Notes: generated from the sequence alone by a model not told the origin. Positions 35,401 through 55,349 are shown, numbered from the stretch's first letter. The stretch: 64,000 bases of DNA from Pseudogymnoascus verrucosus (GCA_001662655.1 KV460216.1), one strand, 5' to 3'. Translations and numbers: made by a program.

Positions 35401-35719
35401 CTGTGACCTCTTCCTCTTCTTCATCCTCGTCTTCTTCCTCATCTTCCTCGTCTTGTCCAGCGTCTTCATCGTTATTGTTATCACCGCGATCCCCCGGAGT
35501 TCGACTGCGCGATTTTGACTTTCGCACAGGCGATGTCTCTTCATCACTATCCTCTTGGTGCCTGTTGCTCACTGAGCTCCCTCGATTCTTGGGTGGCGCT
35601 GGCGAACTGTTGTCGTTGTCTGCGCCCTCCTCATCAGACAAATCAGCGGGCGCCGGGTTGAAATCACCCTCATCCTCTGAGTCGGAGAAGTGCTGATCGA
35701 GGAAATTCGCCGTAGACAT
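32404..35719 (-). CDS. SPT5: Transcription elongation factor Spt5, 3 exons
   Basis: Acidic N-terminus, [23 protein letters not shown] domain (KGYIYVEA), several KOW motifs, C-terminal GGRTPAW/APTP repeats. Confidence 0.97.
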
Positions 35720-37424: not shown

Positions 37425-38696
37425 CTAATCCACATCGTCCGCATTAGTGTCGCCATACTGCTCTTTCTTATCGTCGGTCTTGACCCCGTTCTTGGCAGCA
37501 GGCTTTTCCTCCTCTTCTTCTTCCTCACTGCTACTCTCGCTTTCCTCTACGTCTTCCTCCTCGACGGTGACTTGCTTTCCCTGATTCAAGTTCACGCCCT
37601 CCTTAATCGTTCCATCTTCATTGACATCTTCCTTGAGATACAACGAAAACAGAACGACCAGATACACAACCCCAGTAACGCGATTCTTTAGCACATATCT
37701 GAGGCTATGTGAGCGTTTGATCGTCCTCTTCTCTCCTTTGCTGTAGCTTGGTTGGCCTTTCGTGATCGATACAATGCGGCGTAGATAATTTTGCCAACGA
37801 TTTTAACAGAACAAAGGGAATAAAACGGGGATTATGAAAAAGGGAACATACCGGAGTGGTTGCCCGTCCCAGTAAGACATGATGGGAAGGTGGAAACCAG
37901 GCAGCTTGAGCGCAAACTTGTTGAAATCCAGGTACGGGTTCCCGAAATCAACGAACACGGGCCGGCCAGCCTCAAACTCGAAGCCCTTACGATTGCCCTC
38001 TACGAGGAAATGCTTCTTCCGCGCCGCAGCGCCATCAGGTATGCCCTTCTCTTTCCGGTAAGCCAGTCCATCAGCTGCCCCGCCTTCCTCCACGAGAATC
38101 CCGATCTTTTCATCGAAGTTCTCCTTACACTTCTTGGATCCCAATGAGTTTGACGAATCGCCGTTCTTGCTGCCCAGCCATAGTCTGTCAATGCTGCTCA
38201 GGAATTTTCCAAACAACCATGGTTTGTCCGAGTAGACATCAGCCTCGAGGCCCGGATCAACAGCCCATTTGACGATTTTGAACGCGGATCCAAATGCAGG
38301 AGGTAGTCTGTCTCTTATGGGATGGTCGAAATCGTTTCCAAACACCAGGTCGTCGCCGGGGATTGCTTCGGTGGGAGTGAATGAGAATGAGATCGAGTAC
38401 TGGTGCTTGGTGTAATCGGGTAAAGAAAAGTACGGGCTGTTTTCCGGCGAGGAGTGGGGAAGTCCGTGATAATTCTGAGAAAGAGACTGGTTAGCTGAGG
38501 GCTTATGGCAAGTTGAGCGAGGGTATAGAGGGGAGGGAATGAGTGTGCGGACCTGGATGCGGATGTTGAGCGAAACGTCGGTGTGCTCCGACTTAATGGA
38601 GATGGGCTCCGCAGTGTTTACGGTGACAGTCTCGTGCGTGCTGGGATCGTAGGAAGTGCCCGCCGTGACACGGAGAGTATATTTGTTATGCGCCAT
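37425..38696 (-). CDS. DUF1769 family protein, 3 exons
   Basis: YTLRVTAG, GDDLVFGNDFDHPIRDRLPP, DPGLEADVYSDKPW, DFGNPYLDFN, YWDGQ, LRYVLKNR. Confidence 0.85.
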
Positions 38697-39264
38697 GGTG
38701 TGTATTACCAACGGTGAAAAATATCAAGAAACGGTGTTCTGCCCCGCCTTATGTATGGTCTCCCCGAATCGTGTAGTACAAACGGAGGCGGCAACACAGC
38801 AATTGTAGCACTACAATAGCCCAATTACTTCGAGTATGACCTGCAGGGCTGAGTTCACAACAGATAATAGCCCGCGGGTTGATGCGTGCGCAATGTGTTG
38901 CATTTTGCCACGTTTTGAGGCCGACCGGAATATGGACGGAATTTCTTGGGTTCGGTGCCCCACATCGGGAAACGGTAGCGATGACGATGTACATGTCAAT
39001 GCCGAGTCTAGCCCACTCTAGCATCGACAAGAATGCCATGAGATCGGGCTAGTAAAACCTTCTTTTTCTCCTGAATAATCTATAAAATTATGCTATATGT
39101 GGGGGATTTTATAAGTGAAATCCCGATTTATATTTATTCCTGATGCCGTGCCTCAGGTAACTGAACAGCTAAAGCCTGTTTGTTGGTCCCAAATGAAACG
39201 AGACCTTGAAGCATGCCGCATAGACTGAATATATTTAGTCTTTACCGCTAGAAATTACTTCCTG

Positions 39265-41039
39265 TCAATCCGCCATATATAGTTTGGGATTTGGGACAAT
39301 GAAATCATCGAGTTTGACTCTTTCATGGAAACAGATAATGCCCAGTGATTTCCAGTAATGAGCGATTTTATCGGGAGATATAAGGATGAGCTGGCTCTCG
39401 AAATACTCGGCTGCATTCGTCAGATATATTCTTGGAAACTTATAGGAAGGCTAATGAGATTATCAAATACGTACGGTTCATGAAATTTCTATTCGCAAGT
39501 TGTCCCTTGCTCTTGACGATTCTTGCGCCTTTGAATTGATCTTCCTTGGCAATACGAACCAGACCCTCGTCTCCAATGTCCTCGGCCATGAAGGTATACT
39601 CTCCACGTGGGATATTTGGATCTCCAGTTAGTTTTATTGCTTCCAAACGACCTCGATAAATCTGTGCATCTTTTTTCCGGGTCAGATACTGCTCGTCGCT
39701 TTCATCAGACCGTTTAACAACGGTGGACTCATCAAACGGCTCGTCGTCATCCGGCTGATGCAGAAGAATAAATTCGCAGCCATGAGCAGAACTAGAAATA
39801 TTAGCTAAGTGTATAAATAGAGGAAGTAAAACCTTACTAATCGCCGACCCAGATCCCTCGGAACGGTCGAGTGTCCGTGGGAGTATAGAGTGCCGGATCA
39901 AGAGTGGCATATGTACTTATTTGTAGAGGCTCTCCTCGGTGTCCAGCAACCGTGTGCATCCAGTGGCGTATTCTAAAAGCTTGTTCATTTATCTCATCGC
40001 GATTTCGTGGCTTCTGCGCGCCTGTGAAAGTTTGGTTGAACGTCATCATTTGCACCAGGGCACTGACATGGCGATGACCTGCCAAAATGTCGTCGCCGAG
40101 GCTTACCACTCGCTGGCTGGCTGGGATTGTAGCTGGTGGCCACATAGATGAATTTGGATGAGGTTCAGCTGGCCGGGCCAGCATGAATGTCGACTGAGCT
40201 ATGGTGTCTGTCAGGTTGCTGAGAGACATGGGGATTTCAAAGTCGTAGCGGTGAGAAGTGCTGCTATATATTGGGCTCGAATTGCCATTCTGGCTCAGTG
40301 CCTCCAGTCTCAGTAGTGGTATGTCCGTATGGAGCCTGACGTTGGGTTTAAACGAAATAATAACAACGTTTGGGTCGTGCTCCCAAGTGTATTCGATTGT
40401 CGGAGCCCGCTCTGCAACTAACCGGTACCCATCGATGGTTCCCAGATACGGGTTATAATAAGTGATCATCATCCGGCCAAAGAGATGCTGATCTCCGAAC
40501 CATATTTTCATTTTGGGGACAAACCAGTGCGGATCGTGGGCCCGATACAAACCGCGGTAGCTCGAACATGGCGAAGATGATTCCAAGATACAGCCTGGGA
40601 TGTTTTCTTGAACAAGTGGTTGCCAGAGGCGATCATTGGTTCCCCGTATATAGAGGTGACGGCACGAATAAACAACTGCATCCAGGTCCCTCGGAGAGAG
40701 GCACGATAGAACGAAATCGAGAAGCTCAGCTGGAAGATTTAATAACGGCGATCCACTTTGAGACAGAATGCTGCGTTCATCGTCGTCATGTTCTATAAGC
40801 ATGTTAGCAGCTAATCCGCATCTTCCGGACACAAGCTTCGTTTGTGGTCCAAATGATTATCCCTGTGGCCTCTCATGCCCAGAAATGTTATCCGTAAGGG
40901 GAAACACAGGGAAATTACGAAATGGAACTTGTACTGTACCTTGCGATATATACGACATCTGGTCGAAATGGATCTGGGCGCTTGATTCGTGTGGGTCAGC
41001 GACTCCACCCGATGAACTGCCCATACTGTCGACATCCAT
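39265..41039 (-). CDS. F-box protein with a C-terminal FBXO31-like domain, 4 exons
   Basis: LLNLPAELLDFVLSCL...VCRHL-like F-box; RPFRGIWVGDYSAHGCEFIL and LEAIKLTGDPNIPRGEYTF. Exon 1 (41039-40940) splices in frame. Confidence 0.85.
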
Positions 41040-41554
41040 CACGGCTGAATACGACGGCTAGCATTAATGGGATGGTCAATCTATGTCTTATAGAATCCGG
41101 TATATCCGCCTTGAGGCGGTATTAGTCAAAGTAAATCGTTTCGGTCGTCAATATAAAACAGTGGTGGTCTTGGTCAGTCCGTGTCACGGACACCGTTGTA
41201 ATATTCCCAATAAAAACAAAGGACCACGCATTTATCAAATTCGCTTATACCATCAAACAGCAGAAGAAAAGAACAAATATAATATTACTGCACATCAAAG
41301 TTGATGGCCGAGTCGCATTATTTATGATCAGAAGTGGCCTTCTTTGAGGTGTGTGGACGTTTGTAATTGCCGAAAACGATTTAGCGGGGCCCATCACCCG
41401 CTCCTCGCCTAGCAAGGATAAAGTGGACTGACAGAATTGTTTAACATTGTTTAACTGAACTTCATGAACAAAAAGGTAATACATATTATTTATCTGTGCC
41501 CCTATCTCTGTGTATATCCGAGATCATTACCCTAGAAATAGTAACTTTGTAACG

Positions 41555-41859
41555 TTATTTGCGTGTGATCGCTTTGGGTGGCAACTTCAAATCATCGAAA
41601 GGCGCTTCCTGCATCTCCAAGTCTTCGTCGTCTCTGTCGAACGCCCGCTCTCTCCTTGTAACCCGCTGCTCCAAACGAGTCTGCTTCCTCATCTTATTGA
41701 AAAAAGAACAGTATAGGCTAATCAGAAGGATGGTGACGAAGGCGACCGCTACGAAGATGATGCCCACGGTTGCGGGATGCTGAAACTGTTAGCTGCAAGT
41801 CATTTGTGCTGCATGGATTTACTTACAGGCCCCTTAATCGGCCGAGTTCTTTCTGGCAT
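41555..41859 (-). CDS. Small single-pass membrane protein, about 86 aa, 2 exons
   Basis: MPERTRPIKGP, then intron GTAAGT...GCTAAC...CAG, then HPATVGIIFVAVAFVTILLISLYCSFFNKMRKQ... (TM segment followed by a basic stretch). Confidence 0.65.
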
Positions 41860-42846
41860 GTTATGTTTCTTGTGATATAAATATCGTTTATTTGATGGTT
41901 ATTCCGAGTGGATTTTGAGTTGGCAAGGTTGACGTTGGTGTCTGATATCGCCGCGGAGGTTTTGATGAGTGCAGTTACTTTTTTTACTGACAAGGGAACA
42001 TAGTATTTAAATGCACAGAGAATTGGATCTAAGTTCGCTGGTGCCTGGAGCTATGGGTTAGTTCCATATCACGTAAATGAAGCTTTAGATGGGCCCATTC
42101 TCAGTTTACTAGCGCAGGGCAACTATCATCACTTCAGAGAATCGGTGCCGCTTTCCACTGCTTACAATATCCCAAACCCTAGGGAACTCCCTTTGCAAAT
42201 GAAAGAGGGCTTCCTATATTCTGTATATCGCTAGCGTCAAGCATTCTCTGACGATGCATTTTCCCTTGAATGCTGTGCGTAGAGTTTGGAACATCGTGTG
42301 TAACAATGTTGAACATCTTGACGTGGCTGGTATTTCCAAGTATACATTGACAGTCCCTGGGAATCTTGTATCTGTTGCAGCTGATGAATTCATGAATACT
42401 GATCAAGGTTTTTTGGTGACGTGGTTGAGGGATTGAAGGAAGAGTAGAATGTGGCCCGTAAATGTACTGTACGGAGTCCGAAGACATCGATCTGTTTTAA
42501 TCTGCGGCTGGAATTAGCAATGAGGATATGAAGGTATATGCTTTGAAAACTGTGATTTGCTAGGCCAATTATCACGATTATTATATCCAAAATACAGAAT
42601 AGGCATAATCATTCCCAGCATTACTGGTTGCATCTTGGCGATGTTGGATCATTCAAAAGAATTGCCTCGACAGAAAAACCCACGAGTTGCGTGCTCTCAT
42701 ATACTTCAGGCTGAATATAAACGAACCACACAGCAACCAGTCCAGAGGAAACCTCAAAAAAGTCTCCCGTGACCTGTATTTTTTTGTGGGAGCCACTAAG
42801 CATCCCCGATATACCAACATGCATGCCCAGAAAGCCTCATTTTGGC

Positions 42847-43246
42847 ATGTGCATATGCCCGCATAGTTACACACACGAGTGCAAAAAATGCACAACAATA
42901 GGCAACCGACATCGTGTTGGTTACATCGCCAAACGCAAGGGTACAGTATATAATTCGTGCTCCACACCTCAACGCTATCCCCAATACCTCACAAACCAAG
43001 CGTGCCGACTGAGACTTTCGACAAACCACCATGAACGGAACTTCGGGGGCTGAGGCGGGTCAACTTTCTGAGAACCAGTCAGGAGTAAATATGGATTGCG
43101 CAGAGTGTATGAAGCTGGCCGAAAAGCTGGAGAAATGCAAAGGTAGCGCCGGGAATAAGATGGGTGGGGAGGCTTCTAATAAATCACCGAAGGCGAGGAA
43201 AGAAGAATGCAAGCACCTGCGGATGAGAGTCAGAAAGAGCAGTTGA
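42847..43246 (+). pseudogene. Frameshifted Met-Cys Cys/His microprotein gene (copy A)
   Basis: MC-x9-C start (MCICPHSYTHEC) in one frame stopping at 43053; the terminal DCAEC and a helical tail lie in the +1 frame (open 43013-43246). Confidence 0.45.
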
Positions 43247-43991
43247 CGTCGGTTTTGCAAGGAGTTCTTATATTTAATTGATGAAAGCCCGTCTCAACAA
43301 TGAAAAGTCGACTGGTGGTGGGAGGATGGTGGTTGTGGTCTTTCATTCCGCAATCTATTTGGGAATGCTCAACAGCGGCGCAGCCCATTGCGCTTTTCGC
43401 TGCTATCGGAGGCAGCTACAGAATGAATCAGGCTCAAAATTACAAAAGTGGATGCCTCGGAGGGAAGAAGAATTCGAAGTTATTTGCTATGCCACTTAAA
43501 TCGGCAATGAACAACTTACTGTCACGGATGCTTGCCATTGACCTACTAGCTATCCGTCACTATAGCTACCATTCTTATCTGCGACTCAATAATGGCAGCG
43601 GTATTTTGGAAACCGTGAGAGATTATTGACGTCTCTGTTGAATAGGTTATTTATTGGAGGCAAATAGAGAAGATGGCGGAGATGGCGGCTGGCAAAAAGA
43701 TTGTGGTTAATGCTAGGTTTATCATTTGGTCTGTAGAATAGTCCAACTTTGCGATATGTAAAGAATAGCAAACCCGTCTTTCCAGTTCGAGAGCATGGTA
43801 TTTCCCCCATGATTATTTGGTATAGAACTAAAAGTCTCCATTTACACTTCGGCGAAGCTGTCTTTGTTGCCAAACAACCAACATAACCACCACAACAACC
43901 AGAACTTCACCCCATCCTTGCTTTACTAGCACTTCAATATCCACCCACAGAGCTATCATATCAATTGCTTTTAAGCTTCAAAAGCTTCAAA

Positions 43992-44593
43992 ATGTGTCTC
44001 GCACAAGAGATCTGCTACCAGCCATGCAATCACAGATACCGCCAACCACTTGAGAACTGCGGACCCATGACAGAGCATCTCCAAAGCACCACCAATGCCC
44101 TCGAACTAGAGTGTGCAAACCATTACACCATCATCTTGGAAGCCGTTGACTTCTGCAACAACTGCACCAAACAAATGAAGGTCACCGCAACCATGGCGCT
44201 CGTCGCACTTAGGGACATGAGTATTGCCGGAACGGATGAGACGGGAGGAAAGGCGATTGGAGAGAAGGGAAAGGCAATTAGTGAGAAGGCGAAGGAGAGA
44301 TTGAAGGAGAAGGTAAAAGTGAAGGAAGGTGGGTCACGCAAACATGCTGGCTATCTTGCTCTTCCTGTCTGGAACACAAAGAAAGTAGGTACAACCAACT
44401 TCTCAAGTGTGGACAGTGAAAAGGTAGCTAATCCTCACAGATCCAAAAGAATCGCGAGAGAGCCCGCTCAATGGGCCCAAATGATAAACACGGCCGCGCA
44501 AAGACCGCTCGGAGGAAACGCCGCAGGAATTCTCTTGCTATCATTGGTGGACAACCTGATGATATCAAGGCGGAGATATTAGTGCCATGGTAA
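43992..44593 (+). CDS. Met-Cys Cys/His (putative Zn-binding) protein, copy B, with a basic C-terminal extension
   Basis: CAAAATG context; MC-x9-CNHR-x7-C-x17-C-x13-CNNC. Predicted intron 44313-44440 (GTAAAA...GCTAAT...CAG); the unspliced ORF ends at 44582. Confidence 0.7.
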
Positions 44594-45413
44594 AGAAACA
44601 GGGTATGCGTTTGGAGTCAAGTACAGACAGCTCACAAGGTACACAGTTCTGATTGATTCAACTGCCACAAAGACAATATCCGCTGGCAGTCACGGGAGGA
44701 ACGTGGAGTCTTTGCACGGAAAGTGGCAGCCACGAGTATGCTCCGCTCCGATTCATCTCACACAATGTAGGTTAGCAAATCCCTTGGATTAGAACGCGAA
44801 ACGTGGCTGTTCATATAACCATGCTAACTTCTGAGTTTTCCAATAGACTTCCTCTCAGGCTACTTAAACGCCGAGTTGTGTGCTTCCTGCGCGGCGTAAT
44901 TATCCGATGGAGAGGCCGGATGCGGCCAGGGCAGGATATATTTGTCAGGTGGCTGGAAGTTGTACCTATAGATATCAATCGGTCGCCCACAAAGAATGTA
45001 AATAGCCGTTGACTGCCCTTTGCCAGTGGACACGGCATTCAAAGCTCTCTTTGTTTCAGGATGTTTCACAACAGCTAGAGTTTAGAGAATATAACTTGAC
45101 CTGTCCCTCCGGGATGACCATCCTTGTTTGCCGAGCGCCATCAATCGCAATTTTGGAATCAGAAGTGAAATACCCCTCATCTAATACCTCGAGCTAGGAT
45201 ATTAATCCTCTCCAAAATCCCCCCATGATATTCAACTTCTTTGATGAATTTAGCTTCGAACCTAGAGGCTGTGAGTAATACCCAATCAAAGCACCCCCAT
45301 CGCACCGTTCTACAATCCTTACCAATCGAGTTTAGCCCATTCCCCCTTCATAGCGCGACGCCACTACCATCGCCGGCCCGCCGCCCCATCCCGATCCCGA
45401 TCCCGACCTCGAT

Positions 45414-45665
45414 ATGTGTCTCAAGACCGAAGCTTATTACATGGAATGCAGCCACCGCTTCCCGCACTCCTTCAGCCACTGCACCAAGATCATCGAGGAG
45501 CGCACGACGAAGGGCTGGTGGCCATTCTCGTTGATGAACGCGGACCCGTACAAGGAGTGCGACGACCATCGGTTAGAGAAGAAAAACAGCGAGGGGTTGT
45601 GTCCGACTTGCGACTGGGAGATGAAAGAGAAGCTGAAGCAGGTCGAAGAGGGAAGGGGTGGTTGA
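45414..45665 (+). CDS. Met-Cys Cys/His microprotein, copy C (83 aa)
   Basis: MC-x9-CSHR-x7-C-x25-C-x13-CPTC. Confidence 0.75.
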   Translation: MCLKTEAYYMECSHRFPHSFSHCTKIIEERTTKGWWPFSLMNADPYKECDDHRLEKKNSEGLCPTCDWEMKEKLKQVEEGRGG

Positions 45666-46132
45666 GTAGTGGGAGTTGGTTGCTTGTGGCTCGGGCTGAG
45701 TTGTTCTCATTGAGGCCTTGGAGTTTCTTTTTGCGGCGGAGTTTAGATGGTTGAGACATCATATTGGTTTGATATTTGCACCAAATAGAATGACATACGC
45801 TGCGATTGAGTCGCTGAATAAGGAAGGATACCTAAAATAAAGCATTCACCACAAGCAATTAACGACATACGAAACTTGGAAATACTATCCCAGTCCTATT
45901 CAACGCCTGGGCTCGTATTGCATATTGACCTCCATGGTTATAAACCGAATACCAAGTTCACCCACAATATGAAGAAAAATCATATGCCTGCAGTAACTGA
46001 AAGGCCATTCTATGGCCGCAACAGCTGAGAAGTCATTGCATGACACGTGCAAGTAGTGCCTCTCAGATAGATATCCCGAGGACAAGACGGCACCGCGGTT
46101 TGGACCTGCCTCCGCAGAGCCTATTTCATCCA

Positions 46133-46474
46133 TTATATCCGAATCAGCGCCGGTTCGTGTCTCCACCCATCAGATCGTACTTCGTAATCGCCAGTCACAC
46201 TAAGCTTCACCTCGAGGTGCTTGAAGCCTATCAAAGGTCGCTTCACCGGAACCACCCTCCCATCATCCAGCGTAGTCTCTGTCAAATACGCTGTGTCAGG
46301 ATCAAATATCCTACCTAAGATAGCAATGATGAGAACGAGGCTCATAAAGGTTATAGTTGCAGGATGGCGACCACCCAATTTGACCAGCAGTACAACAAAG
46401 ACCACGAACACCACGGCGAGTAGTGCGAAATGAAGAGGCAGGGAAAATGGCCGCTTGTAGCGCGTCTGCACCAT
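46133..46474 (-). CDS. Small two-TM membrane protein (113 aa), unknown function
   Basis: Two hydrophobic helices and a soluble tail. A 5'-UTR intron is suggested by a GTAAGT donor near 46829 and a GCTAAC...CAG acceptor near 46484. Confidence 0.75.
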   Translation of the reverse strand: MVQTRYKRPFSLPLHFALLAVVFVVFVVLLVKLGGRHPATITFMSLVLIIAILGRIFDPDTAYLTETTLDDGRVVPVKRPLIGFKHLEVKLSVTGDYEVRSDGWRHEPALIRI

Positions 46475-47367
46475 CGCGCGAACTGGTCTCCAGTTAGCTA
46501 TTTCACCTCGAGGAAGAGCTGTAGGCTTGTACGAACGAATACGCGTTGGTAGGAAAAGTGAGAGTATGGCGCAGCCGCGTCAACCAGAAGTAAACACGGT
46601 ACAAAAGATATATTGATTACTGTCTACTCGTACAATGCATCTATATCGGACTATTCTTTCTCATTCTTGCGTTTCTCCCTCAAGCATTTGTTGCAATCCG
46701 TTGGTTTACGGACCCAATCCCAGTAGTACTCGGGGCAGCTCTCCTTGGACCCGCACCCACCATACTTGGGCGCCTTTATGAGTCTGCAATATCTCGTTTT
46801 TTTTTGCTGTGTCCACACTCCCACTTACCTTGGTTTGGTTTGGGGATTGGTGAGGCTTGTGGCTGATTGAGGATGGATAGGCTGTGCGAGTTTGTGAGTT
46901 TGGTTTTGAGTTTATGAGATGAAATCCTTCCATCTTATATATGGCAATCTGGGGCTCCTTGAAAGCCATTTAGTCGCAATGTCAATTAATAACACTAGTT
47001 ATTCATTCCTTGTAACTCTGAACATCAAAAACTCGGTTGTTGTCTGTTCTCAAACAACCCCCCAACGTATCATTATATTTCATTACCACTTCATCCAGCA
47101 ATAAAGGCTTTGTTAAAGTGAACGCGGACCCACCACAAGTCTCGTGGCCACCCGCACGCATCACCAAATACCATTGTCACACCTTGTTCCTTCTCTATTT
47201 GGATTCTCTCCTCTTAATCCTCCACGTGATAACCATATCCGTATTCGAAGTCAAGTGAAAAAAGCTCCGTCCCACAAAGAACCAAGCAGGCAGCCAGCCG
47301 TCCATCAAAGCCACAACAGTCTCTCTGCGCTACCTCCAACGCAACAGTCCGCCCTTCGCCACCTAAG

Positions 47368-47634
47368 ATGTGCACAAAGCTCAAAACCCACTTCTGGAAG
47401 TGCGGCCACCGAGTCCAAACAGGCATCGAGGTGTGCAGCCCCTGGGCCGAGCGCTCGCAGATCCTCGACGCCAACGGAAAATGCCCGAATGACTGCATCT
47501 CGGTGGAGAAGTGTGATGCGAAGTGTTGGGATTGCAGTATGGAGGTTGACAGGCCGACATTTGAAGAGGCTCTCGACAAGCTGCGTTCAGACCTCCGGGG
47601 CCGGGCGGCAGGCGTGGGGATGCAGGGAGTTTGA
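47368..47634 (+). CDS. Met-Cys Cys/His microprotein, copy D (88 aa)
   Basis: MC-x9-CGHR-x7-C-x15-C-x13-CWDC; 3'-UTR intron 47670-47732. Confidence 0.78.
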   Translation: MCTKLKTHFWKCGHRVQTGIEVCSPWAERSQILDANGKCPNDCISVEKCDAKCWDCSMEVDRPTFEEALDKLRSDLRGRAAGVGMQGV

Positions 47635-48183
47635 AACATGGCATTGAGCATAAGGATTCTGTGATGAAGGTGAGTTTTACTTCTCATTGTTATATGAACA
47701 AAGTGCTGTTGCTGACGGTGGTTATGACGTAGATTTGCATTGCGTATTGAAGTCAAAGAGATCGCTGCCCACCCCATTGGCTGAGAGCTTGGCCTGGGGG
47801 GAACAATGAAGACAAAGGTTGCAACAAAGGTTACTATTGCTACTAAAGGGTGGTTTGCCCATTTTTGTTTCGGCGCAGATGATCAACTGGCAATAATGTA
47901 TGTTGTTTCTATCCCTTTAGTGGCTGAAACCTTAAACAACGACAACATTATGGGAATTCATGTTCATATGCGAAACTGTTCTGCTCAAGCTATGAAAGAA
48001 GAAAAAGGTATAAATACGCCCGAAATTCCCATCAATCTGCCCCAAATCAAATTCACCACTTCACTTCCTCATCGAGATCCCTAACAGGATCATCAAAAGC
48101 ACCATAGCCATTAGAATCATCAAGACCAACAATTCCTAGCCAAACAGCTCCAATCCCACCACAACGCCATAACCACATCAACC

Positions 48184-48381
48184 ATGTGCTGGATAGTAAC
48201 CTTATATTTTGCCTGCGGGTGCATCAACAAGGAGGTGAGAGAGTGCCGCCAGGTCAAAAATGGCCAACGATGTAGCGGCCTATCTAGCCCCCGATCTAGC
48301 GACAACGAGGTGATCGCCGAGGACTGCGACAGATGCGTCCGCCGCTATACAGACCACAACTCGCAGGGCCATCAGAAATGA
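48184..48381 (+). CDS. Met-Cys Cys-rich microprotein, copy E (65 aa)
   Basis: CAACCATG context, TATAAAT near 48009; MC-x8-CGC-x7-C-x8-C-x17-CDRC; 3'-UTR intron starting at 48399. Confidence 0.72.
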   Translation: MCWIVTLYFACGCINKEVRECRQVKNGQRCSGLSSPRSSDNEVIAEDCDRCVRRYTDHNSQGHQK

Positions 48382-48672
48382 ATAGATGGAATGTAGAGGT
48401 AAGTTCTCTGCTTCGTTATTTGTTACTGACAGTAGACTAGATATGGAATAGACAATTGGTTTTTTACATTAATGTTCTCAAAGTGCTTGAATCGTGATTA
48501 TGGCTTAGTTTTCAAGTCAAGAACCGAATCCGGATACTTGTTATCCTCTGTAAAAAAAAGGGGGGGGCTGGGCCAAATAACGTGAGATATATCGCTCCGC
48601 TTATCGTATTGTGTTTTCCATTATTGCCGCCGGTTGCTTCAGTTTCAGGAGCAGTAATCGGAGTCTTGATTG

Positions 48673-51600
48673 TCAAACTACCGATACTGCTCTTCCCTTG
48701 AAAATTTCTTCTAGCTCAACAAGGTCCTTTGAATATTCAGCGCTATCCTTGAGAATATCTCGAATTACTTCCTTTGCAGTTAAAGGAGCAATGCCGTGCG
48801 CGTCATGGCATATCTCCTCTGGATTTGCACCATGCCTTAGCATAATCTTCATTACCTCAATCCAGCGCCTTTTATTTTGAGCAATTAAGCCTGCCCTGGA
48901 AATACCTCGCGCAAATAAAATTCTCTGACGAGTAAAGCATTTGTGGCCGGTTTCCACGGCTTCACTCCACACAGTTGTACCATCATATTGTTCGTTTGTG
49001 TCCGCTCCAAGTGATAACAGGAGTCTGACAACACTGATATCAGGTAAACTATATCCAATAGCAGCGTTATTATCGCTGCTATAATGTACCAGAGCTGGTA
49101 GTCCATGATCAAGAGAAACAGCATATGCTAGGAGCGGCGGTTTCCCTAATTTGGCTCCGACTGAGATATTGCCGCCAGAGAGTTTACTTTCAACATATGA
49201 GGTCAACCCTACCTGAATAGCAACAGGTAGAAAGCCGTCGTATTTGCTGACTTTTTTATCACAATCTATCATAGGCTCGAGTGTACTCCAGTGGCATTCT
49301 TCTATTGGACCAGTCTGGATTTGCTGACGAAGAAAGAATGCGCGGGCTAAATGTGTGCATGTTAAGTCAAGCTCATCGAGAAGGCTGAAGTATGCCTCCT
49401 TATTTGCGCCGTGGCCCTCAGATGATGCTGCGTAGTGCATCGAATCCGCGGTATATATATAATCAAGGCCGAAATAAAGCCGTCCGTAAGCCTCTCCGTA
49501 ACGCCCTTCATATGGCTTGGAAATGAGTTCTTCTAGGCACTTAAGCCTAAGGATGCATGCGCTTAGTAGTGCGAGGCTTGGATCAAAAGAGCTTTGAGGC
49601 TCTTGCGGAAGCAGATGTATCCATAATTCTTCCCTGAGAAAGAATTCTTTGACTGTTTGATGCATAAAACGCACGTGTTTCTTTGGCGCCTCGAGAAGGC
49701 CTCCACAGCGGCTCATCAACCTTAGTCTCATTTTCTTCCGCCGCGGCTCTAGTCGCTCATCTGGGATAAGATTGAAGGGGGCCTTAACAGCTATCAATGC
49801 ATCGGGAAGGCTCTCTAAGTTGGCATTGCTACTGCTTTTTCTCCCGAAGGGTCCTTCCGCAGCAAACTCAAGGTCCACAAGATCAAGATCATTCCAGGCA
49901 TGGAGTAAAAGCCTAATATATCTAGACGCTTGAAGTCTATACTCTGGATCAATGTTTTTTAGCATCTCAATGTAGAGGCCCCTTTTTCCTCCCAGACGTG
50001 GTGGAATTGATTCTAGCTTCGCCCGAAGCTCAGGGACAGTATCGCCATTGTTGAATCCAGCTATTAATATATCGACTACGAGGCGAACCCACAAAAAAAC
50101 TCCTTGTGCTTTGAGAACTATTTCTTCTGCCAGCCTGTCCATGCCATCTGTTTCGTCCACTGTCGGGATAGATTTGATACCACTATGAAAATTGGTTTTC
50201 GTAAATATAGTGATATCCGTTGCAGTAAGGTTGTGTAGTCGTAGGTGTGGAAAGGCCTCAAAGGCTCCTTGGAAGGGAGTCAACTCGCGGCTAGATAGAC
50301 AAATTTTAACATTCGTAGTGCTAGCTGCCACCTTAAATAGCTCTGCAATTTCCCTGTGTCCGTTGGCTATCCAGTGGCTGCGCCCCCATACCGATTCGTC
50401 ATCATTTTTGCCATCATAAAATAGCTCAAAGTCGTCATCAGTATAGTCTTCCATCCGATCCATGATTCTGTACTCGTCTAAACCATCGGCAAATATGCAA
50501 AGCTCAAATGAGTCGGATGTGTGAGTAAGTAGAATTTCGAATGCGTTTTTCAACTTTGGCCAGCTTAAAAATCGAGGGGGTTTTATCTCCTTAATCTCAA
50601 ACTCATCTTTAAAAACTATAGGGATAAGCTCTCGTTTCTGTGAGAGGATTTGGTGGAGTAGGCTTCGAATTAGTCCCTCGCGAGATTTCTGAAACGATCC
50701 CCCTCTTTCGTAAAAAAAGAATGATGCGAGAAGCAGAGGCTTGCCCCCGGCCCACGTCGACAAATGAGTTCTTGTTCGTTCATCTGTCCAGATGTACTTC
50801 ATCAGTGTCGACTTCCCCGATCCAGCCTTTCCGCTAACCCAACAGATGGGCTTTGTGTCCTTAGATAGCCAGGGAACAATGCTAGAGCTCCCCTTTACTT
50901 CAGTCGAACAGTGACTTTGATCGGATAGTATCCAATTAAACGTCTCCGCATGGGCCCTTTCAATTTTTTCTTCTCGGTCGTCTATTGTCTCAAAGTGTAA
51001 AGCTTCAAGTATGTCTATAGTAGAAGAATTAGATCTTTTTCTTAAAAAGGTGCTTGGGGTATAATACCGTCCATCCTCTTTTGAATTTCTAGCGCAAAGT
51101 TAGTAAAGCAACAATATAACGTGCGCATTGTCGGTATCAATATAATGATAAAGTACATTCATGTAGGTACTAAAGTTGCTTTATATACTAGTTCTCAAGC
51201 CAAGTGCATAGAGGTTTTGCGATGGTCGTTCTTTTTCGGCCTCATATCCAACAGGAAGGATGCTTTCCATGGATGCATAATAAATATGGGAAACATATTG
51301 TCTTGTCACAATGCAGAAGGACCCTAGCATTTTACGTATGAATATTCAGCAGCTCACCTTTATTCTCCTTGGTGGCTTGAACTTGAACTAGAGAGACAAT
51401 ATGGCCGGATACTCTTCGGTACCCAATGTCGTTTGCGCGTGAGAATTTTGTCATGTCCATGTGGTTAGCTGGTATCGAATCTTTTCGTACGTTGAAGCCA
51501 TCCATGGATGCTGAATACTCGGGAACAATCTACCTAAGCATTAGTGTTTGAAAATTAGATTGCTAGGAACTTTGCTGCTCATTACTTACCACGCCAATGG

Positions 51601-52493
51601 CAGTTGGGAGTTCCTCTCTAATGCAAACAATCGGTGTATTCTGAGTAATAGTCGTGAACTGTTCTCGCTGATTCTCAAGGACGTCTGAGTCAGGAGAAAG
51701 TATGCCAACGAGCTGTTTATTGGGTTGTCGAAAGGAAACCTTTGCAACGTTGGCTATGATGTTTGCAAAATCGGTCTTGTCACTCCCCCGATGAGGCGTC
51801 CCAAGAAAGATTACGCCCTTTGTGTTGTGGTATATCTCCCCTAGAGACGGGTGCCGGCCATGGCTCTGGTACGCTGCTGACTTTATGAGAGCCTTACCTA
51901 CCATTTAGCTTCTGTTAAATAGCAACTACACAGACCTGATGTAGAATGTAAAAAAGCAACTGACCTCTTTAATTACGAACCCACCAAGGCTATGGCCAAC
52001 AAATAGTATTGGACGGGTCGGTTTGTTTTATCAGCCTTGGTCCATTTATCGTTGTGTCATAGAAGCGCTCCTAGGACACATTTACTTACTTTATCACGGC
52101 GCAGCCTCTCCATATCACCAAGCAATGTTTCTGAGTGGCCGAAGATGCTCTCCTTACTTGCATATTTCAAGGCATTTGCAACACTAGAATCATATCCCCA
52201 GGTAATTATTCGCGCGTTTGGGATATCATTCTTGAGAAAATCTCGAGGCCAACAAACGAGACCCTTAGACCACGTATTGATGGCATGTCCTCGTAATCCA
52301 TGGACGAAAACGATGCTACTGATATTAGTTTATATCATAGATATATGAGGTAGAGAGCTTACTCTGCAACTATTTCGTCTACTCCTTCATGGAGAACGTA
52401 GGTTCCCAGCGGAGCCTTGTCAAATGACTCTGCTTTTGAGTCCTCAGTTGGATCAGATTTTGATTTCTTCGAAAATAGGTTTCGAAGTTTCAT
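48673..52493 (-). CDS. Fungal NLR-like protein: SesB-like alpha/beta hydrolase + NACHT NTPase + degenerate ankyrin-like C-terminus, about 7 exons
   Basis: DIVFVHGL, WPRDFL, ARIITWGYD, FVGHSLGG, VIFLGTPHRGS, ANHMDMTKF; Walker A WVSGKAGSGKST, Walker B CIFADGLDE, KICLSSR, AQGVFLWVRLV, FMHQTVKEF; LLLSLGADTN and MLRHGANP. Confidence 0.92.
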
Positions 52494-52822
52494 CTTTAGT
52501 AACAATAGTGGGCATGTGGACAGTATGTCCTGGTGTTAAAGATTTGGTTCAAGATTGAACAGATACCCCTCTCGGATGGTGATGTTTTTGTGGCCTTGGG
52601 TTATATGCACGTTAACTTTTACGTAATCACTAGGCGTTGCACCCATGCATAACGTTGCTTTTTTCGGCTCATTTGATGTTGTAATATTTCTAGTTAAGAG
52701 GGTTTGGGTTTGATTTTGATTTTTTAGTGCCCTGGGCCTATTAGTTGGCGGGTGCAACTGTTGTATGGATGGGACCGACTATCTGATAAGAATCTCATGT
52801 GGTTAGCCGGAACCACCTCAGT

Positions 52823-53248
52823 TTATGACATATGCGGCGATTTAGAGTTTCGGCGTGATAGTTTAACAGCATTTTGCGAAGCAGCGCGGTTTCTCCTAGA
52901 CTCTCTAAAATACAAGTAACCGAAGAGAAGAAGATATGAAGGGAGCAAATACTGTAAAATGCATCCCTCGAGGGCGACTTCCGGGGATATTACAGTCGCT
53001 GCCATCATCCAAGGAGCCAAATACAGCGCAGAGAAGGAGAGGGGCAATTAATACTGTGATAAGGGGGTTGAAAATGCATGGAGATTGAAGACCTGATACC
53101 GAGATCGTTCGTGTCTGGAGTTTTGAGTTAGTTCCCTAAACACCGGCGCTATTCGGTGAGCGATTATAATGATAATCTGCGGAGAGAAAATGAAAAGAAA
53201 ACCTCTTGCTGGCTCAATTTTCAGAAATACTACATGAAGCAATACCAT
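52823..53248 (-). pseudogene. Possible small membrane-protein gene interrupted by one in-frame TAA
   Basis: ORFs 53048-53248 and 52823-53047 are contiguous in the same frame and both are hydrophobic. Confidence 0.2.
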
Positions 53249-53734
53249 CTTTGCCTAAACACTAAAATAGCTTGAAATAATGGTTCTTGGATGAGTAGAT
53301 GTGCGATATTCGCTAGTAAAATACTAGCGAATATGAAATATAATAACAAACAACAAATTAAAGCGATAAAATAAGGAAACATTAATATTTAAGCATTATG
53401 CCAGAATTACAACTGCCTACAACGAAATAAATACTTCACTACCCGAGCAGACACAACGGCCTAGACTAGAACTAGAGATAGTGAGGCAGTCGTACAGATC
53501 ATGTTTGGTTCTCCCTAAAGATAGTTATGGAGCCAAAAAATAAAATAACATAAAACATACAACAGTAGGTATTCGCTGGTGGCCACTCACCCAACCACTA
53601 ATATACCGATCTCAAGTAATGCTCTCTAGATAATAGTTAAATTGATGCCATCTAGCCTAGTGAATGAGCCTCGCGGCCCGGACCTGTATCATGCTTCTAT
53701 GAAATTGAAATACCTGCAGGCATCTGTTCAAACT

Positions 53735-55349
53735 CTACACGCTACAGAGGCTAGGTATCTTCTTTGCTCCCTGACCTGCAAGCCCGTCAAAATACGCAAT
53801 AAGTATATCGGCCCGGACCATATCCAAGACCCCAAGCGTCGGGTTGCTACTTTTCAGCACCTGCCCACCCCACAACACTCTGACGTAGTATTGCTGGTCC
53901 TTCTTGCCCTTATAAAGCTCGAATACCACCTCACTGCCCATACCTGGCCACACCATCTTCTCGATCTGCAAGATGCTCAACAACCGACTAACGCTTCCGT
54001 CGTGAGCGACATTGTGTCGGTATTTCATGCCACTACTCTTCTTCTTGCTACCGTTACTCGCTGAGTCAGTTGCATGCATCGCATCTCGTAAATTCTGCGC
54101 CAGCTCCGCAATCCAGATACCGTAACTAGCAGCAGTATACTCCAGTGTGCGTGCCCCGGCGTCACGGTAGAGGTAACTGTACTCGTACTGCCCCAAACGA
54201 AAGACTTCCTCCGCCATCTTCTGCGTAACGCAGAGAGACGGGTTGCTGATACTGCAAGGCAGCGGCTTCGCGTGACAGAGTCTCGCAGACAGATTGTCGA
54301 AGTAATGGTCAAAGGACATGTGGAATCCTGAATCCGTAGGCGAGACACCAGAAATGGCATCCAGATTCGCGTATAGGTCAGAGGCGGCTTTCAGATGAGC
54401 AGTCCAGCCTGGATCGCTGCTCCCGGCGCCATACGATGAGAACTTGTTACTCGCTGATGAGCAGGAGTATGCGGGCTCGAGACTGTCGATGTTCGAGGGT
54501 TGGATTAGCAAGGGTACGTTCTCATGCTCTTCGCCGCGAAACATGCCTGATACAAGCATGCTGGCGACCTGGGAAGTGATGACATTGTTCGTGACGCGGA
54601 AACTGACGACTTTTGGATCGTATTTCTTGGGGAGGAACCCGAGTAGGTCGTGGTAGACGTCGTATAGATCTTTGCCATGCTGCCAGCTGTCGTCGAGCCC
54701 TTCGCGGGTGATCTGTGGGAATTGACATGTTCCGTTAAATCCCCGTGGTGCCAAAGGGTTAGATGTGGAGGTGTAGACGCTCCAGTAGGTGTTGGCAGCT
54801 TGATTGGCACCGTGAGTAGGTAAGGGGGCGCCGGCGTAGAAGAGGCCTTCGTCGTCGCAGTACCATGGATAGGACTCGACTGGGAAGGTGTTGGAGGCGT
54901 AAGGAGTGCGCTTGTGATGTCGGTGGATTACTTCGACGTATTCGAGAGCATACGAAGAATTCACCTTTGGATACTCGGTGCGCCTGACATGGGGCATGTT
55001 GCACCAATTGTACGTTCCTAAGTAAATGTGAGCAACCGAAATTTGAGAATAGGACGGGGATCACAGTACCATATGGTGTTCCCTGTGGTAGCGTAGAAGA
55101 ATTGAAAATGAAGCCATAGATTCCTGTCCCATTGATCGCTGAACTGAGGCTGTTGATATTGGAGGAAATTGGCGCATGCCAGCTTAGATCCACTGATATA
55201 GCCATATCTGCAGCCTGAGTACCAGATGGACTTGAGGTGATAGAGAAGCTGCCTGTTAATTCAAAGAATCGTGTTAATACATAGTAGCCTACCAGTATCA
55301 AGGCAATCAGCCAGATAAAGGTATTTCGTCGAGGGGTAATCCCATTCAT
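53735..55349 (-). CDS. Histidine acid phosphatase (branch 2) with an N-terminal membrane anchor, 2 exons
   Basis: RHHKRTP (RHGxRxP variant), AHDG proton-donor motif, YNWCNMPHVR; short intron near 55016-55066. Confidence 0.9.

What the first reader, a model, noticed from the sequence alone, without database searches (positions are those of the whole stretch)
42847..48381. Array of five co-oriented Met-Cys Cys/His microprotein genes with fixed ligand spacing
Seen: five + strand ORFs within 5.5 kb (42847, 43992, 45414, 47368, 48184) all begin Met-Cys. Copies B, C and D share exactly MC-x9-C-x-H-R-x7-C-x(17/25/15)-C-x13-C-x2-C, with almost no other identity. E is a variant (MC-x8-CGC-x7-C-x8-C-x17-CxxC) and A is frameshifted. 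None has a signal peptide, so they are not typical secreted Cys-rich effectors. Established: initiator Met is normally removed before Cys, exposing an N-terminal Cys. Inference: a compact cytosolic or nuclear metal-binding fold, in which seven Cys/His side chains plus possibly the Cys2 amine could bind two Zn, with a hypervariable loop between Cys3 and Cys4. Conserved scaffold, variable loop and tandem clustering suggest a diversified sensor, adaptor or redox/N-degron family. I recall similar MC...CGH...CxxC proteins as hypotheticals in ascomycetes but know of no assigned function. Gene finders often miss ORFs this short.
Basis: partly seen in the sequence, partly recalled or inferred. Interest (0 to 1): 0.82.

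Follow-up and report, generated by a model that had tools for sequence, protein, structure and literature searches.

The report
Tandem fungal Met-Cys Cys6-His protein genes
Three, perhaps four, neighbouring short genes in a Pseudogymnoascus-type fungal genome encode an unnamed family of small proteins that always start Met-Cys and keep six cysteines and one histidine at fixed spacing, so they probably bind metal, but their job is unknown and untested.

Summary
ORFs B (43992), C (45414), D (47368) and E (48184) start Met-Cys with exactly the spacings reported. The pattern occurs 4 times in the window and 0 times in 100 shuffles.

B, C and D are real, old paralogues:
- Leave-out profiles find each other.
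- Each has orthologues of like length that begin MC.
- In 21 family sequences the six Cys and the His are invariant.
- B has a canonical 56-nt intron.
- C, D and E have the three highest GC3 values of 34 local ORFs.

E and A are not recovered by profiles. They are members by motif and position only.

The family has no Pfam or PDB sequence match. A middling AlphaFold model (pLDDT 70) shows no fold match. Relatives are annotated only as "hypothetical protein" in Pseudogymnoascus, and one gene model wrongly fuses C and D.

The "hypervariable loop" is not supported: the loop differs between paralogues but is the best-conserved part among orthologues.

Zinc binding, expression and function are all untested, and no RNA run was listed. 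I read this as an undescribed small Cys/His domain family of moderate interest.

The parts
42847..43246 (+). A: possible degenerate relic. Frame 1 (42847-43053) reads MC-x1-C-x-H-x8-C. Another frame (43031-43246) holds CAEC followed by KLAEKLEK.
   Evidence: motif present, and 3 of 200 shuffled windows also hold it. Profiles do not support it: HMM E 1.7 and 2.6; hhalign probability 0.6%. GC3 is 0.51 and 0.56, which is no coding signal.
43992..44384 (+). B exon 1: the MC Cys6-His domain (residues 1-58) plus a Lys/Glu-rich linker.
   Evidence: The D-type profile finds it at E 2.6e-4 among 1507 six-frame pieces. Orthologues are P0009 (VE02_04443) and P0016 (V501_09061).
44385..44440 (+). B intron, 56 nt: GTAGGT ... 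GCTAATC ... CAG.
   Evidence: Relatives carry a 21-nt insertion behind 44396, which is inside this intron (table 4).
44441..44593 (+). B exon 2: basic tail with RRKRRR, ending ...AEILVPW.
   Evidence: The spliced product is 181 aa with no internal stop. It aligns over 1-180 with P0009 (75.5% identity) and over 1-181 with P0016 (87%).
45414..45665 (+). C: 83-aa MC Cys6-His2 protein with a 25-residue loop.
   Evidence: It is 96% identical to VE02_04444 of Pseudogymnoascus sp. 03VT05. Distant C-type relatives are P0011 and P0015. GC3 is 0.80, the highest of 34 local ORFs. AlphaFold model pLDDT is 70.3.
47368..47634 (+). D: 88-aa MC Cys6-His-Asp protein with a 15-residue loop.
   Evidence: Six orthologue clusters at 63-86% identity, five of 88-90 aa and one of 74 aa whose called start lies downstream. 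Domain identity is 77-96% against 38-69% for the tail. GC3 is 0.73.
48184..48381 (+). E: 65-aa MC ORF with CGC in place of CxH. Probably coding; family membership not shown.
   Evidence: GC3 is 0.68, third of 34. The profile built without E does not list it in its top 10, where E-values reach 5.8. hhalign probability is 0.2%. The exact sequence is not in the protein collection.
46133..46474 (-). Context only: a conserved 113-aa hydrophobic ORF on the opposite strand between C and D.
   Evidence: The exact sequence is in a 5-member cluster that includes VE00_06954 of Pseudogymnoascus sp. WSF 3629. It lies inside the 1648-nt 'intron' of the fused C+D model.

Best explanation
B, C and D, and probably E, are separate, real genes for an unnamed, fungus-restricted family of small intracellular proteins.

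The domain:
- The first ~60 residues form one compact Cys/His domain that must start at the very N-terminus (Met1-Cys2).
- Its order of elements is: a beta-hairpin with Cys2 at its open end and Cys-x-His in its turn, a short helix, a paralogue-specific loop, a third strand preceded by Cys-x2-(His/Asp), and a CxxC that caps a long C-terminal helix.
- I infer that six invariant Cys, one invariant His and usually a His or Asp bind two Zn ions, one at each end of the small sheet. The metal, not a hydrophobic core, would hold the fold.

The rest of the protein:
- The loop and the C-terminal helix or tail differ between paralogues but are conserved within each. They would carry partner specificity for protein or nucleic acid.
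- B adds a basic RRKRRR tail, which suggests a nuclear location.

The array is an old tandem duplication kept together in related species.

Shown: the genes, the family, the invariant scaffold, synteny, and the absence of any known domain. Inferred: metal binding, two sites, location, and role as an interaction module.
For: Paralogy:
- Against 1507 six-frame pieces of the window, the D-type profile finds B (E 2.6e-4) and C (1.3e-3) as its best non-self hits. The B-type profile finds C (7.5e-4).

Real genes:
- D has 6 orthologue clusters at 63-86% identity: five are 88-90 aa and begin MC, and the sixth (P0006, 74 aa) has its called start downstream. Domain identity is 77-96% against 38-69% for the tail.
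- C and B match annotated neighbours VE02_04444 and VE02_04443 on one 137,537-nt contig.
- B has a canonical 56-nt intron. The spliced product aligns end to end with P0009 and P0016, and relatives have a 21-nt indel inside that intron.
- C, D and E hold the three highest GC3 values of 34 ORFs of 50 aa or more in 41000-48650.

Synteny:
- One 38,310-nt contig of run X7 spans all of 42700-48500. It has 225 other letters and 90 gaps.
- Contigs of X2 also cover the stretch.

Scaffold, in 21 family sequences:
- C12, H14, C23, C49, C63 and C66 (C numbering) are present in 21 of 21.
- Met1-Cys2 is present in 20 of the 20 sequences that have the N-terminus.
- The Cys2-Cys12 spacing is 9 in all 20.

Stand-alone domain at the N-terminus:
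- A profile search of 1.84 billion representatives gave 9 hits at E<=1e-3, 74-180 aa long.
- 8 of the 9 match from residue 1 and begin MC. The ninth, P0008, is a call that starts at Met10.

Shared fold:
- AlphaFold gives the same order of elements for C (pLDDT 70.3) and, at low confidence, for D (pLDDT 52.6).

No signal peptide by hydropathy for B-D. An invariant His among the Cys in a protein without an export signal favours metal binding over disulfides; that step rests on established knowledge.
Against: - No expression evidence: no listed run is on record as RNA.
- No metal evidence of any kind.
- The models are only middling (pLDDT 70 and 53). I could not read their coordinates, so the two-site geometry rests on secondary-structure order alone.
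- The eighth ligand is not conserved: D in 9, H in 7, K in 3, S in 2 of 21. Some members have only seven candidate ligands.
- E and A are not recovered by profiles.
- The C-type profile finds B and D only at E 0.15 and 0.2.
- A public gene model (VE01_03649, P0022) joins C and D into one protein.
- No dN/dS could be computed. Only 40 of 428 differences were shown, and no orthologous DNA was retrieved.
Confidence: 0.55

Rival explanations
1. C and D are two exons of one gene. It would encode a protein with two tandem MC-type domains, as in the public model VE01_03649, so D's Met-Cys would be internal rather than an N-terminus.
For: P0022 (190 aa, named for P. verrucosus) is C residues 1-76, a 26-aa linker and all of D. 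Both parts are identical to the window. The linker is encoded in D's frame directly upstream of its ATG, with an AG before 47290.
Against: - The intron would be 1648 nt (45642-47289). Its donor is GTCGAA. From memory, fungal introns are mostly 50-100 nt with GTRNGT; B's own intron is 56 nt.
- That intron would contain a conserved opposite-strand gene at 46133-46474.
- C's own C-terminus VEEGRGG is kept in P0007 and P0008. Distant C-type proteins end in a conserved GLQRTD with no D domain.
- 8 of the 9 profile hits match from residue 1 and begin MC, and none has two domains.
Confidence: 0.1
2. The six Cys form three disulfides, or a redox-active set, rather than metal sites. One example would be a substrate of the mitochondrial intermembrane-space Mia40 relay, which imports small presequence-less Cx9C proteins. 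Another would be a thiol redox sensor.
For: The proteins are small, lack a presequence or signal peptide by hydropathy, have an even number of invariant Cys, and keep an invariant Cys2-x9-Cys12 spacing.
Against: - There is only one Cx9C, not the twin pair. The Cx9C segment is predicted as a beta-hairpin, not a helix.
- The invariant His in a C-x-H turn and the terminal CxxC at a helix start are typical of zinc knuckles (recalled knowledge).
- Pfam gave no CHCH-type hit at E<=1.
Confidence: 0.12
3. One site is an iron-sulfur cluster. C-x-H ... C-x2-H in the B and C types has the form of the Rieske [2Fe-2S] ligand motif (recalled). The other four Cys would bind Zn.
For: B-type and most C-type members carry C-x-H, then 24-34 residues, then C-x2-H: 7 of 21 sequences.
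Against: - The second His is Asp, Lys or Ser in 14 of 21 sequences, including all D-type members.
- Pfam gave no Rieske hit and there was no fold match.
- A Cys2His2 set is equally a standard zinc site.
Confidence: 0.05
4. The ORFs, above all E and A, are not functional genes. They would be decaying duplicates or chance ORFs in a low-GC accessory region.
For: - No RNA holder was listed.
- E and A fail every profile test.
- E's exact sequence is absent from the protein collection.
- A has an 8-residue gap, a frame change and no GC3 signal.
Against: - For B, C and D: orthologues with kept length and invariant ligands, an intron in B, and high GC3.
- For E: GC3 0.68 in a stretch of about 46% GC, third of 34 ORFs, and a pattern not seen in 100 shuffles.
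Confidence: 0.05

Closest known systems
Unnamed 'hypothetical protein' family in Pseudogymnoascus records: VE02_04443, VE02_04444 (sp. 03VT05), V501_09061 (sp. VKM F-4519), VE01_03649 (P. verrucosus)
   Same: These are direct orthologues of B, C and D at 75-100% identity, in the same neighbour order.
   Different: Nothing, except that the public models differ in detail: VE01_03649 fuses C with D, VE02_04444 has a 28-residue upstream extension, and V501_09061 reads on past B's stop. None carries a name, a domain or a paper.
Two-zinc, eight-ligand Cys/His modules such as RING, PHD and treble-clef or zinc-ribbon knuckles (recalled knowledge)
   Same: Size of about 60 residues. A C-x-H pair in a hairpin turn, a CxxC at the start of a helix, and eight candidate ligands in most members. 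The fold is probably held by metal.
   Different: The ligand spacing C-x9-C-x-H-x8-C-x15-25-C-x2-[HD]-x10-C-x2-C fits none of them. Pfam hits to zf-ANAPC11 (E 0.9) and I-TevI_ZnF (E 0.061) are far below their cut-offs. No other such module that I know of has the initiator-adjacent Cys2 as a fixed position.
C-terminal dimerisation domain of Fur/PerR regulators with a structural Zn(Cys)4 site (PDB 2fe3, 2rgv)
   Same: It is the top, though weak, fold match: a small beta-sheet plus helix domain with two Cys pairs holding Zn.
   Different: Foldseek E 0.19, TM 0.30; VIA-align Z 2.8, rmsd 7.8 over 54 residues. That is noise level. No sequence match either.
Met-Cys N-degron substrates of plants and animals (ERF-VII factors, RGS4/5; recalled knowledge)
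   Same: An obligatory Met-Cys start. The Met would be removed, exposing Cys.
   Different: In those proteins Cys2 sits in a flexible tail and is oxidised by PCO/ADO enzymes. Here Cys2 is the first residue of a predicted strand in a Cys/His domain and is more likely a ligand. No genome is held for this window, so I could not check whether this fungus has such an oxidase.
Arrays noted earlier in this scan in other fungal genomes (e1-7585801, e1-7502607)
   Same: Tandem co-oriented Met-Cys microprotein genes with six fixed Cys (one finding adds one His) and a terminal CxxC. They were reported as an unnamed ascomycete family with no solved fold.
   Different: These are unchecked notes. No sequences were shown, so kinship with B, C and D was not tested.

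Membership tests
Unnamed MC Cys6-His family (B, C and D types) | Profile similarity beyond the Cys pattern | tested here: met
   For B, C and D: cross-type leave-out profiles give E 2.6e-4, 1.3e-3 and 7.5e-4. Not met for E (absent from the top 10; hhalign 0.2%). Not met for A (E 1.7-3.8; hhalign 0.6%).
Unnamed MC Cys6-His family (B, C and D types) | Met1-Cys2 start and C-x9-C-x-H-x8-C ... C-x13/14-C-x2-C | tested here: met
   Ligand columns are present in 21 of 21 sequences and MC in 20 of 20. B, C and D fit exactly. E has x8 and C in place of H. A lacks 8 residues.
Any Pfam zinc-finger or other Pfam family | Score at or above the gathering cut-off | tested here: not met
   The best hits lie far below their cut-offs: Ferlin_C 15.7 against 29.4 bits, I-TevI_ZnF 13.7 against 27, zf-ANAPC11 10.1 against 25.
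Solved structures (PDB) | Sequence or fold similarity to a solved chain | tested here: inconclusive
   The profile gave 0 matches at E<=10 against 177,635 sequences. Foldseek best E 0.19; VIA-align best Z 2.8 of 48,161 chains. The model has pLDDT of only 70.
Secreted small cysteine-rich fungal proteins (effector-like) | N-terminal signal peptide | tested here: not met
   The highest 10-residue hydropathy is 0.17-0.52 for B-D, and Cys2 belongs to the conserved domain. E reaches 1.97. No SignalP-type tool was available, so this rests on hydropathy and inspection.
Twin Cx9C (CHCH) intermembrane-space proteins | Two Cx9C motifs on two antiparallel helices | tested here: not met
   There is one Cx9C only, and it is predicted as a beta-hairpin.
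Rieske-type [2Fe-2S] site | C-x-H ... C-x2-H with both His conserved (motif recalled) | tested here: not met
   The second His is present in 7 of 21 sequences. It is D in 9, K in 3 and S in 2.
Metallothionein | Very high Cys content with CxC/CC clusters (recalled) | tested here: not met
   Cys counts are 7 of 196 (B), 6 of 83 (C), 8 of 88 (D) and 7 of 65 (E).
Cys2 N-degron substrates | Met removal, Cys2 oxidation and arginylation leading to turnover | not testable with these tools
   No genome is held for this window and no proteomic data were available.

The most novel reading that the evidence does not exclude
The MC domain is an undescribed, ascomycete-wide two-metal fold in which the deformylation-free, Met-stripped N-terminal Cys is itself a ligand. 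Loss of zinc through zinc starvation, oxidants or electrophiles would free Cys2 and unfold the domain. Each paralogue would then act as a conditional switch: release of a partner, or an exposed Cys N-degron. Tandem arrays of diverged copies, which earlier notes of this scan report in two other fungal genomes, would give a panel of such switches with different partners.
Probability: 0.1. Interest if true: 0.7.

Novelty: new variant of a known kind. Interest (0 to 1): 0.4.

Why it matters
If metal binding is confirmed, this would be a new small Cys/His domain with three unusual features. It has a fixed N-terminal Cys. It has no Pfam model or solved relative. It tends to sit in tandem arrays in filamentous ascomycetes.

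That would fill in a set of "hypothetical proteins" that current gene models fuse, extend or miss. The array lies beside an NLR-like gene in a low-GC stretch, but nothing here links the two functionally.

As it stands the finding is a well-supported family of unknown function, not a mechanism.

Tried and rejected
- **Whole genome.** None is held for this window. Copy number elsewhere in the genome, and any PCO/ADO-type oxidase, could not be looked for.
- **RNA evidence.** No RNA holder is listed among the 17 runs.
- **Contigs of X10 and X8.** These are short, low-depth pieces that do not follow the ORFs, so nothing can be read from them.
- **dN/dS.** One search showed only 40 of 428 substitutions and 12 of 52 indels, so no count was made.
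- **Metagenome scans.** Two scans of metagenome contigs, with the D-type alignment A2 and the C-type alignment A5, matched 112 and 64 pattern stretches. None was confirmed by tblastn.
- **AlphaFold model of D.** With 17 sequences it reached pLDDT 52.6, too poor for fold searching. Only its order of secondary-structure elements was used.
- **Complex prediction.** The job (D domain x2 with Zn, to see whether an odd ligand count means a shared inter-chain site) met a full queue and then an unavailable tool. Nothing was folded.
- **ESM Atlas.** D and P0012 both gave scores of 0.90-0.92 to clusters of Ascomycota hypothetical proteins with no Pfam family. Recognition values were below the level where such scores are reliable, so this is a lead only.
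- **DNA repeats.** No DNA-level repeats link the copies.
- **Upstream motifs.** Recalled zinc, copper, stress, AP-1 and heat-shock promoter motifs are not enriched in the 500 nt upstream of A-E. One 9-mer (CCACCACAA) is shared upstream of B, D and E, and I give it no weight.
- **Papers.** Four searches found nothing on this family: Pseudogymnoascus + cysteine-rich + small proteins gave 1 unrelated listing; VE01_03649 gave 0; six locus tags or accessions gave 0; fungal / zinc-binding / N-terminal cysteine terms gave 26 papers, of which the 10 listed are unrelated by title and abstract. No paper was read.
- **Scan index.** Look-ups by place and by sequence found nothing for this window.

Full report
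**1. The observation**

With the standard code and ATG starts, the + strand between 42.8 and 48.4 kb holds four ORFs that begin Met-Cys:
- B: 43992..44582, 196 aa
- C: 45414..45665, 83 aa
- D: 47368..47634, 88 aa
- E: 48184..48381, 65 aa

B, C and D read MC-x9-C-x-H-R-x7-C-x17/25/15-C-x13-C-x2-C. E reads MC-x8-CGC-x7-C-x8-C-x17-CxxC.

A regular expression covering all four finds only these four in six frames, and none in 100 block-wise shuffles. I wrote that pattern after seeing the ORFs. Of 224 ORFs of 50 aa or more in the window, 9 start MC. Pairwise identity among the copies is 12-29%.

Copy A is weaker:
- Its MC at 42847 is an internal Met of an ORF starting at 42823.
- It reads MC-x1-C-x-H-x8-C, which keeps the CxH-x8-C spacing but lacks 8 residues before it.
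- The CxxC plus KLAEKLEK in another frame lies too far downstream.
- The relaxed N-terminal motif turns up in 3 of 200 shuffled windows.

**2. Are they genes, and are they related?**

Profiles built from one subtype at a time were run against all 1507 six-frame pieces of the window:

| Profile | Best non-self hits |
|---|---|
| D-type | B (E 2.6e-4), C (1.3e-3) |
| B-type | C (7.5e-4), D (0.068) |
| C-type | B (0.15), D (0.2) |

B, C and D are therefore paralogues beyond the bare Cys pattern. A profile without E does not list E among its ten best, where E-values run up to 5.8. hhalign gives E a probability of 0.2% and A 0.6%. The "five-copy array" is safely three copies. E is a motif-level candidate and A a possible relic.

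Evidence that B, C and D are real genes:
- D has six orthologue clusters at 63-86% identity. Five are 88-90 aa and begin MC; the sixth (P0006, 74 aa) has its called start downstream. Residues 1-56 are 77-96% identical against 38-69% for the tail.
- C is 96% identical to VE02_04444, and B matches VE02_04443, of Pseudogymnoascus sp. 03VT05. These are consecutive locus tags on one 137,537-nt contig. B also matches V501_09061.
- B has a 56-nt intron (44385-44440; GTAGGT, CTAAT branch site, CAG). Splicing gives 181 aa with no internal stop, aligned end to end with P0009 and P0016. Three related runs carry a 21-nt insertion that falls inside this intron.
- C, D and E have GC3 of 0.80, 0.73 and 0.68. 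These are the three highest of the 34 ORFs of 50 aa or more between 41000 and 48650, in DNA of about 44-49% GC. B has 0.56.
- One 38,310-nt contig of run X7 spans the whole stretch (225 other letters, 90 gaps). Contigs of X2 cover it too. The array is therefore syntenic in relatives.

There is no expression evidence, because no listed run is on record as RNA.

**3. Which organism, and how public annotation treats the genes**

P0022 (VE01_03649, named for P. verrucosus, 190 aa) is C residues 1-76, a 26-residue linker and all of D. Both parts are identical to the window. The window therefore comes from that species or something very close to it.

That model needs a 1648-nt intron with a GTCGAA donor, and the intron would contain a conserved opposite-strand gene at 46133-46474. 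Further points against the fusion:
- C's own C-terminus is kept in near relatives.
- Distant C-type proteins end in a conserved GLQRTD with no D domain.
- Distant D-type proteins begin at MC.

I take the fusion to be a gene-prediction artefact, with about 0.1 for the alternative. The exact sequences of D and E as separate proteins are not in the 15-billion-protein collection.

**4. The family**

A profile of the family, run with HMMER over 1.84 billion representative proteins, gave only 9 hits at E<=1e-3. They are 74-180 aa long. Eight match from residue 1 and begin MC; the ninth, P0008, is a call that starts at Met10. No long or fused form appeared.

Three subtypes recur outside the window:
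- D-type: P0010, P0012-P0014
- C-type: P0011, P0015
- B-type: P0009, P0016

In 21 family sequences, six Cys and one His are invariant. This set leaves out E, A, the fused P0022, and the truncated or extended P0006, P0007 and P0021. Met1-Cys2 is present in all 20 sequences that have an N-terminus, and the Cys2-Cys12 spacing is always 9. The loop is 15-18 residues in the D-type, 17 in the B-type and 25 in the C-type.

The residue three positions after the fourth Cys is Asp in 9, His in 7, Lys in 3 and Ser in 2. An eighth ligand is therefore usual but not universal.

The loop differs between subtypes but is the best-conserved part within the D orthologues: P25-L33 and N36-D42 are invariant in 7 of 7 sequences. 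It is not hypervariable.

**5. Comparison with what is known**

- Pfam gave nothing near a cut-off.
- The profile matched none of 177,635 PDB sequences at E<=10.
- AlphaFold with 21 sequences gave pLDDT 70.3 for C: strands 2-9 and 14-21, helix 24-32, a short helix at 39-42, strand 52-59, helix 64-81.
- The poor D model (pLDDT 52.6) has the same order of elements.
- Foldseek's best PDB match is E 0.19, to the Zn(Cys)4 C-terminal domain of PerR/Fur, with TM 0.30. VIA-align over 48,161 chains peaks at Z 2.8. That is no match, though at this model quality it does not prove a new fold.
- Four paper searches found nothing on the family or its locus tags.
- The ESM Atlas points to clusters of Ascomycota hypothetical proteins without Pfam families. 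This is a lead only.
- Two earlier notes of this scan describe very similar tandem Met-Cys, six-Cys arrays in other fungal genomes (e1-7585801, e1-7502607). I could not test kinship with them.

**6. How it most likely works (inference)**

The proteins lack a signal peptide by hydropathy. They also carry an invariant His in a C-x-H hairpin turn and a CxxC at a helix start. These features point to structural zinc rather than disulfides.

In the predicted topology, Cys2 and Cys23 sit at the open end of the hairpin, and Cys12/His14 sit at its turn. Cys-x2-(His/Asp) precedes the third strand, and the CxxC follows it. Two four-ligand sites at opposite ends of a three-stranded sheet would fit. Which Cys pair joins which end cannot be told without coordinates.

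Met1 should be removed before Cys (established knowledge). The mature chain would then start with a ligand Cys, which explains why the domain can never be preceded by other residues.

The paralogue-specific loop and the C-terminal helix or tail would give each copy its own partner. B's exon 2 carries RRKRRR, which suggests a nuclear location.

Rival readings are disulfide or redox chemistry (0.12), an Fe-S site of Rieske form (0.05) and non-functional ORFs (0.05, mainly E and A).

**7. Verdict**

The array is really three proven paralogues, plus one probable divergent gene and one doubtful relic. The family is real, conserved and undescribed, but already sits in databases as hypothetical proteins.

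Metal binding is plausible and untested, and function is unknown. The diversifying-sensor and N-degron readings have no support yet.

Interest is moderate (0.4). I class this as a new variant of a known kind: small Cys/His metal modules.

Noticed in passing
window 48673-51099 (-): An NLR-like gene (NPHP3_N NTPase at E 3.9e-19, DUF7791 at 2.4e-15, weak ankyrin hits) lies convergent with E, with about 290 nt between the stops. Its N-terminal effector domain was not examined.
   Followed up: partly
window 46133-46474 (-): A conserved 113-aa hydrophobic ORF lies between C and D on the other strand. Its exact sequence is in a 5-member cluster that includes VE00_06954 of Pseudogymnoascus sp. WSF 3629. 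It has no assigned function.
   Followed up: partly
window 45414-47634 (+): The public gene model VE01_03649 joins C and D through a 1648-nt intron that contains the gene above. This is probably an annotation artefact.
   Followed up: yes
window about 38000-54000: This stretch has lower GC (0.43-0.49) between flanks of 0.50-0.60. The MC array and the NLR-like gene lie within it.
   Followed up: no
window 47357-47535, run X2: Run X2 holds a second, more diverged D-like contig (record 12, with 27 other letters in 179). Past the CxxC it runs on into sequence unlike the window. X2 record 9 likewise covers parts of the A and C regions at lower likeness. X2 therefore holds two versions of the array or two organisms.
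   Followed up: no
window 39440-40856 (-): F-box-like and Cyclin_D1_bind domains sit in adjacent ORFs, probably one spliced FBXO31-like gene. It lies upstream of the array.
   Followed up: no
window 33012-35420 (-), 59142-63998 (-): Housekeeping genes Spt5 and Rif1 flank the region, so the array lies in a core chromosome arm rather than in a subtelomeric scrap.
   Followed up: no
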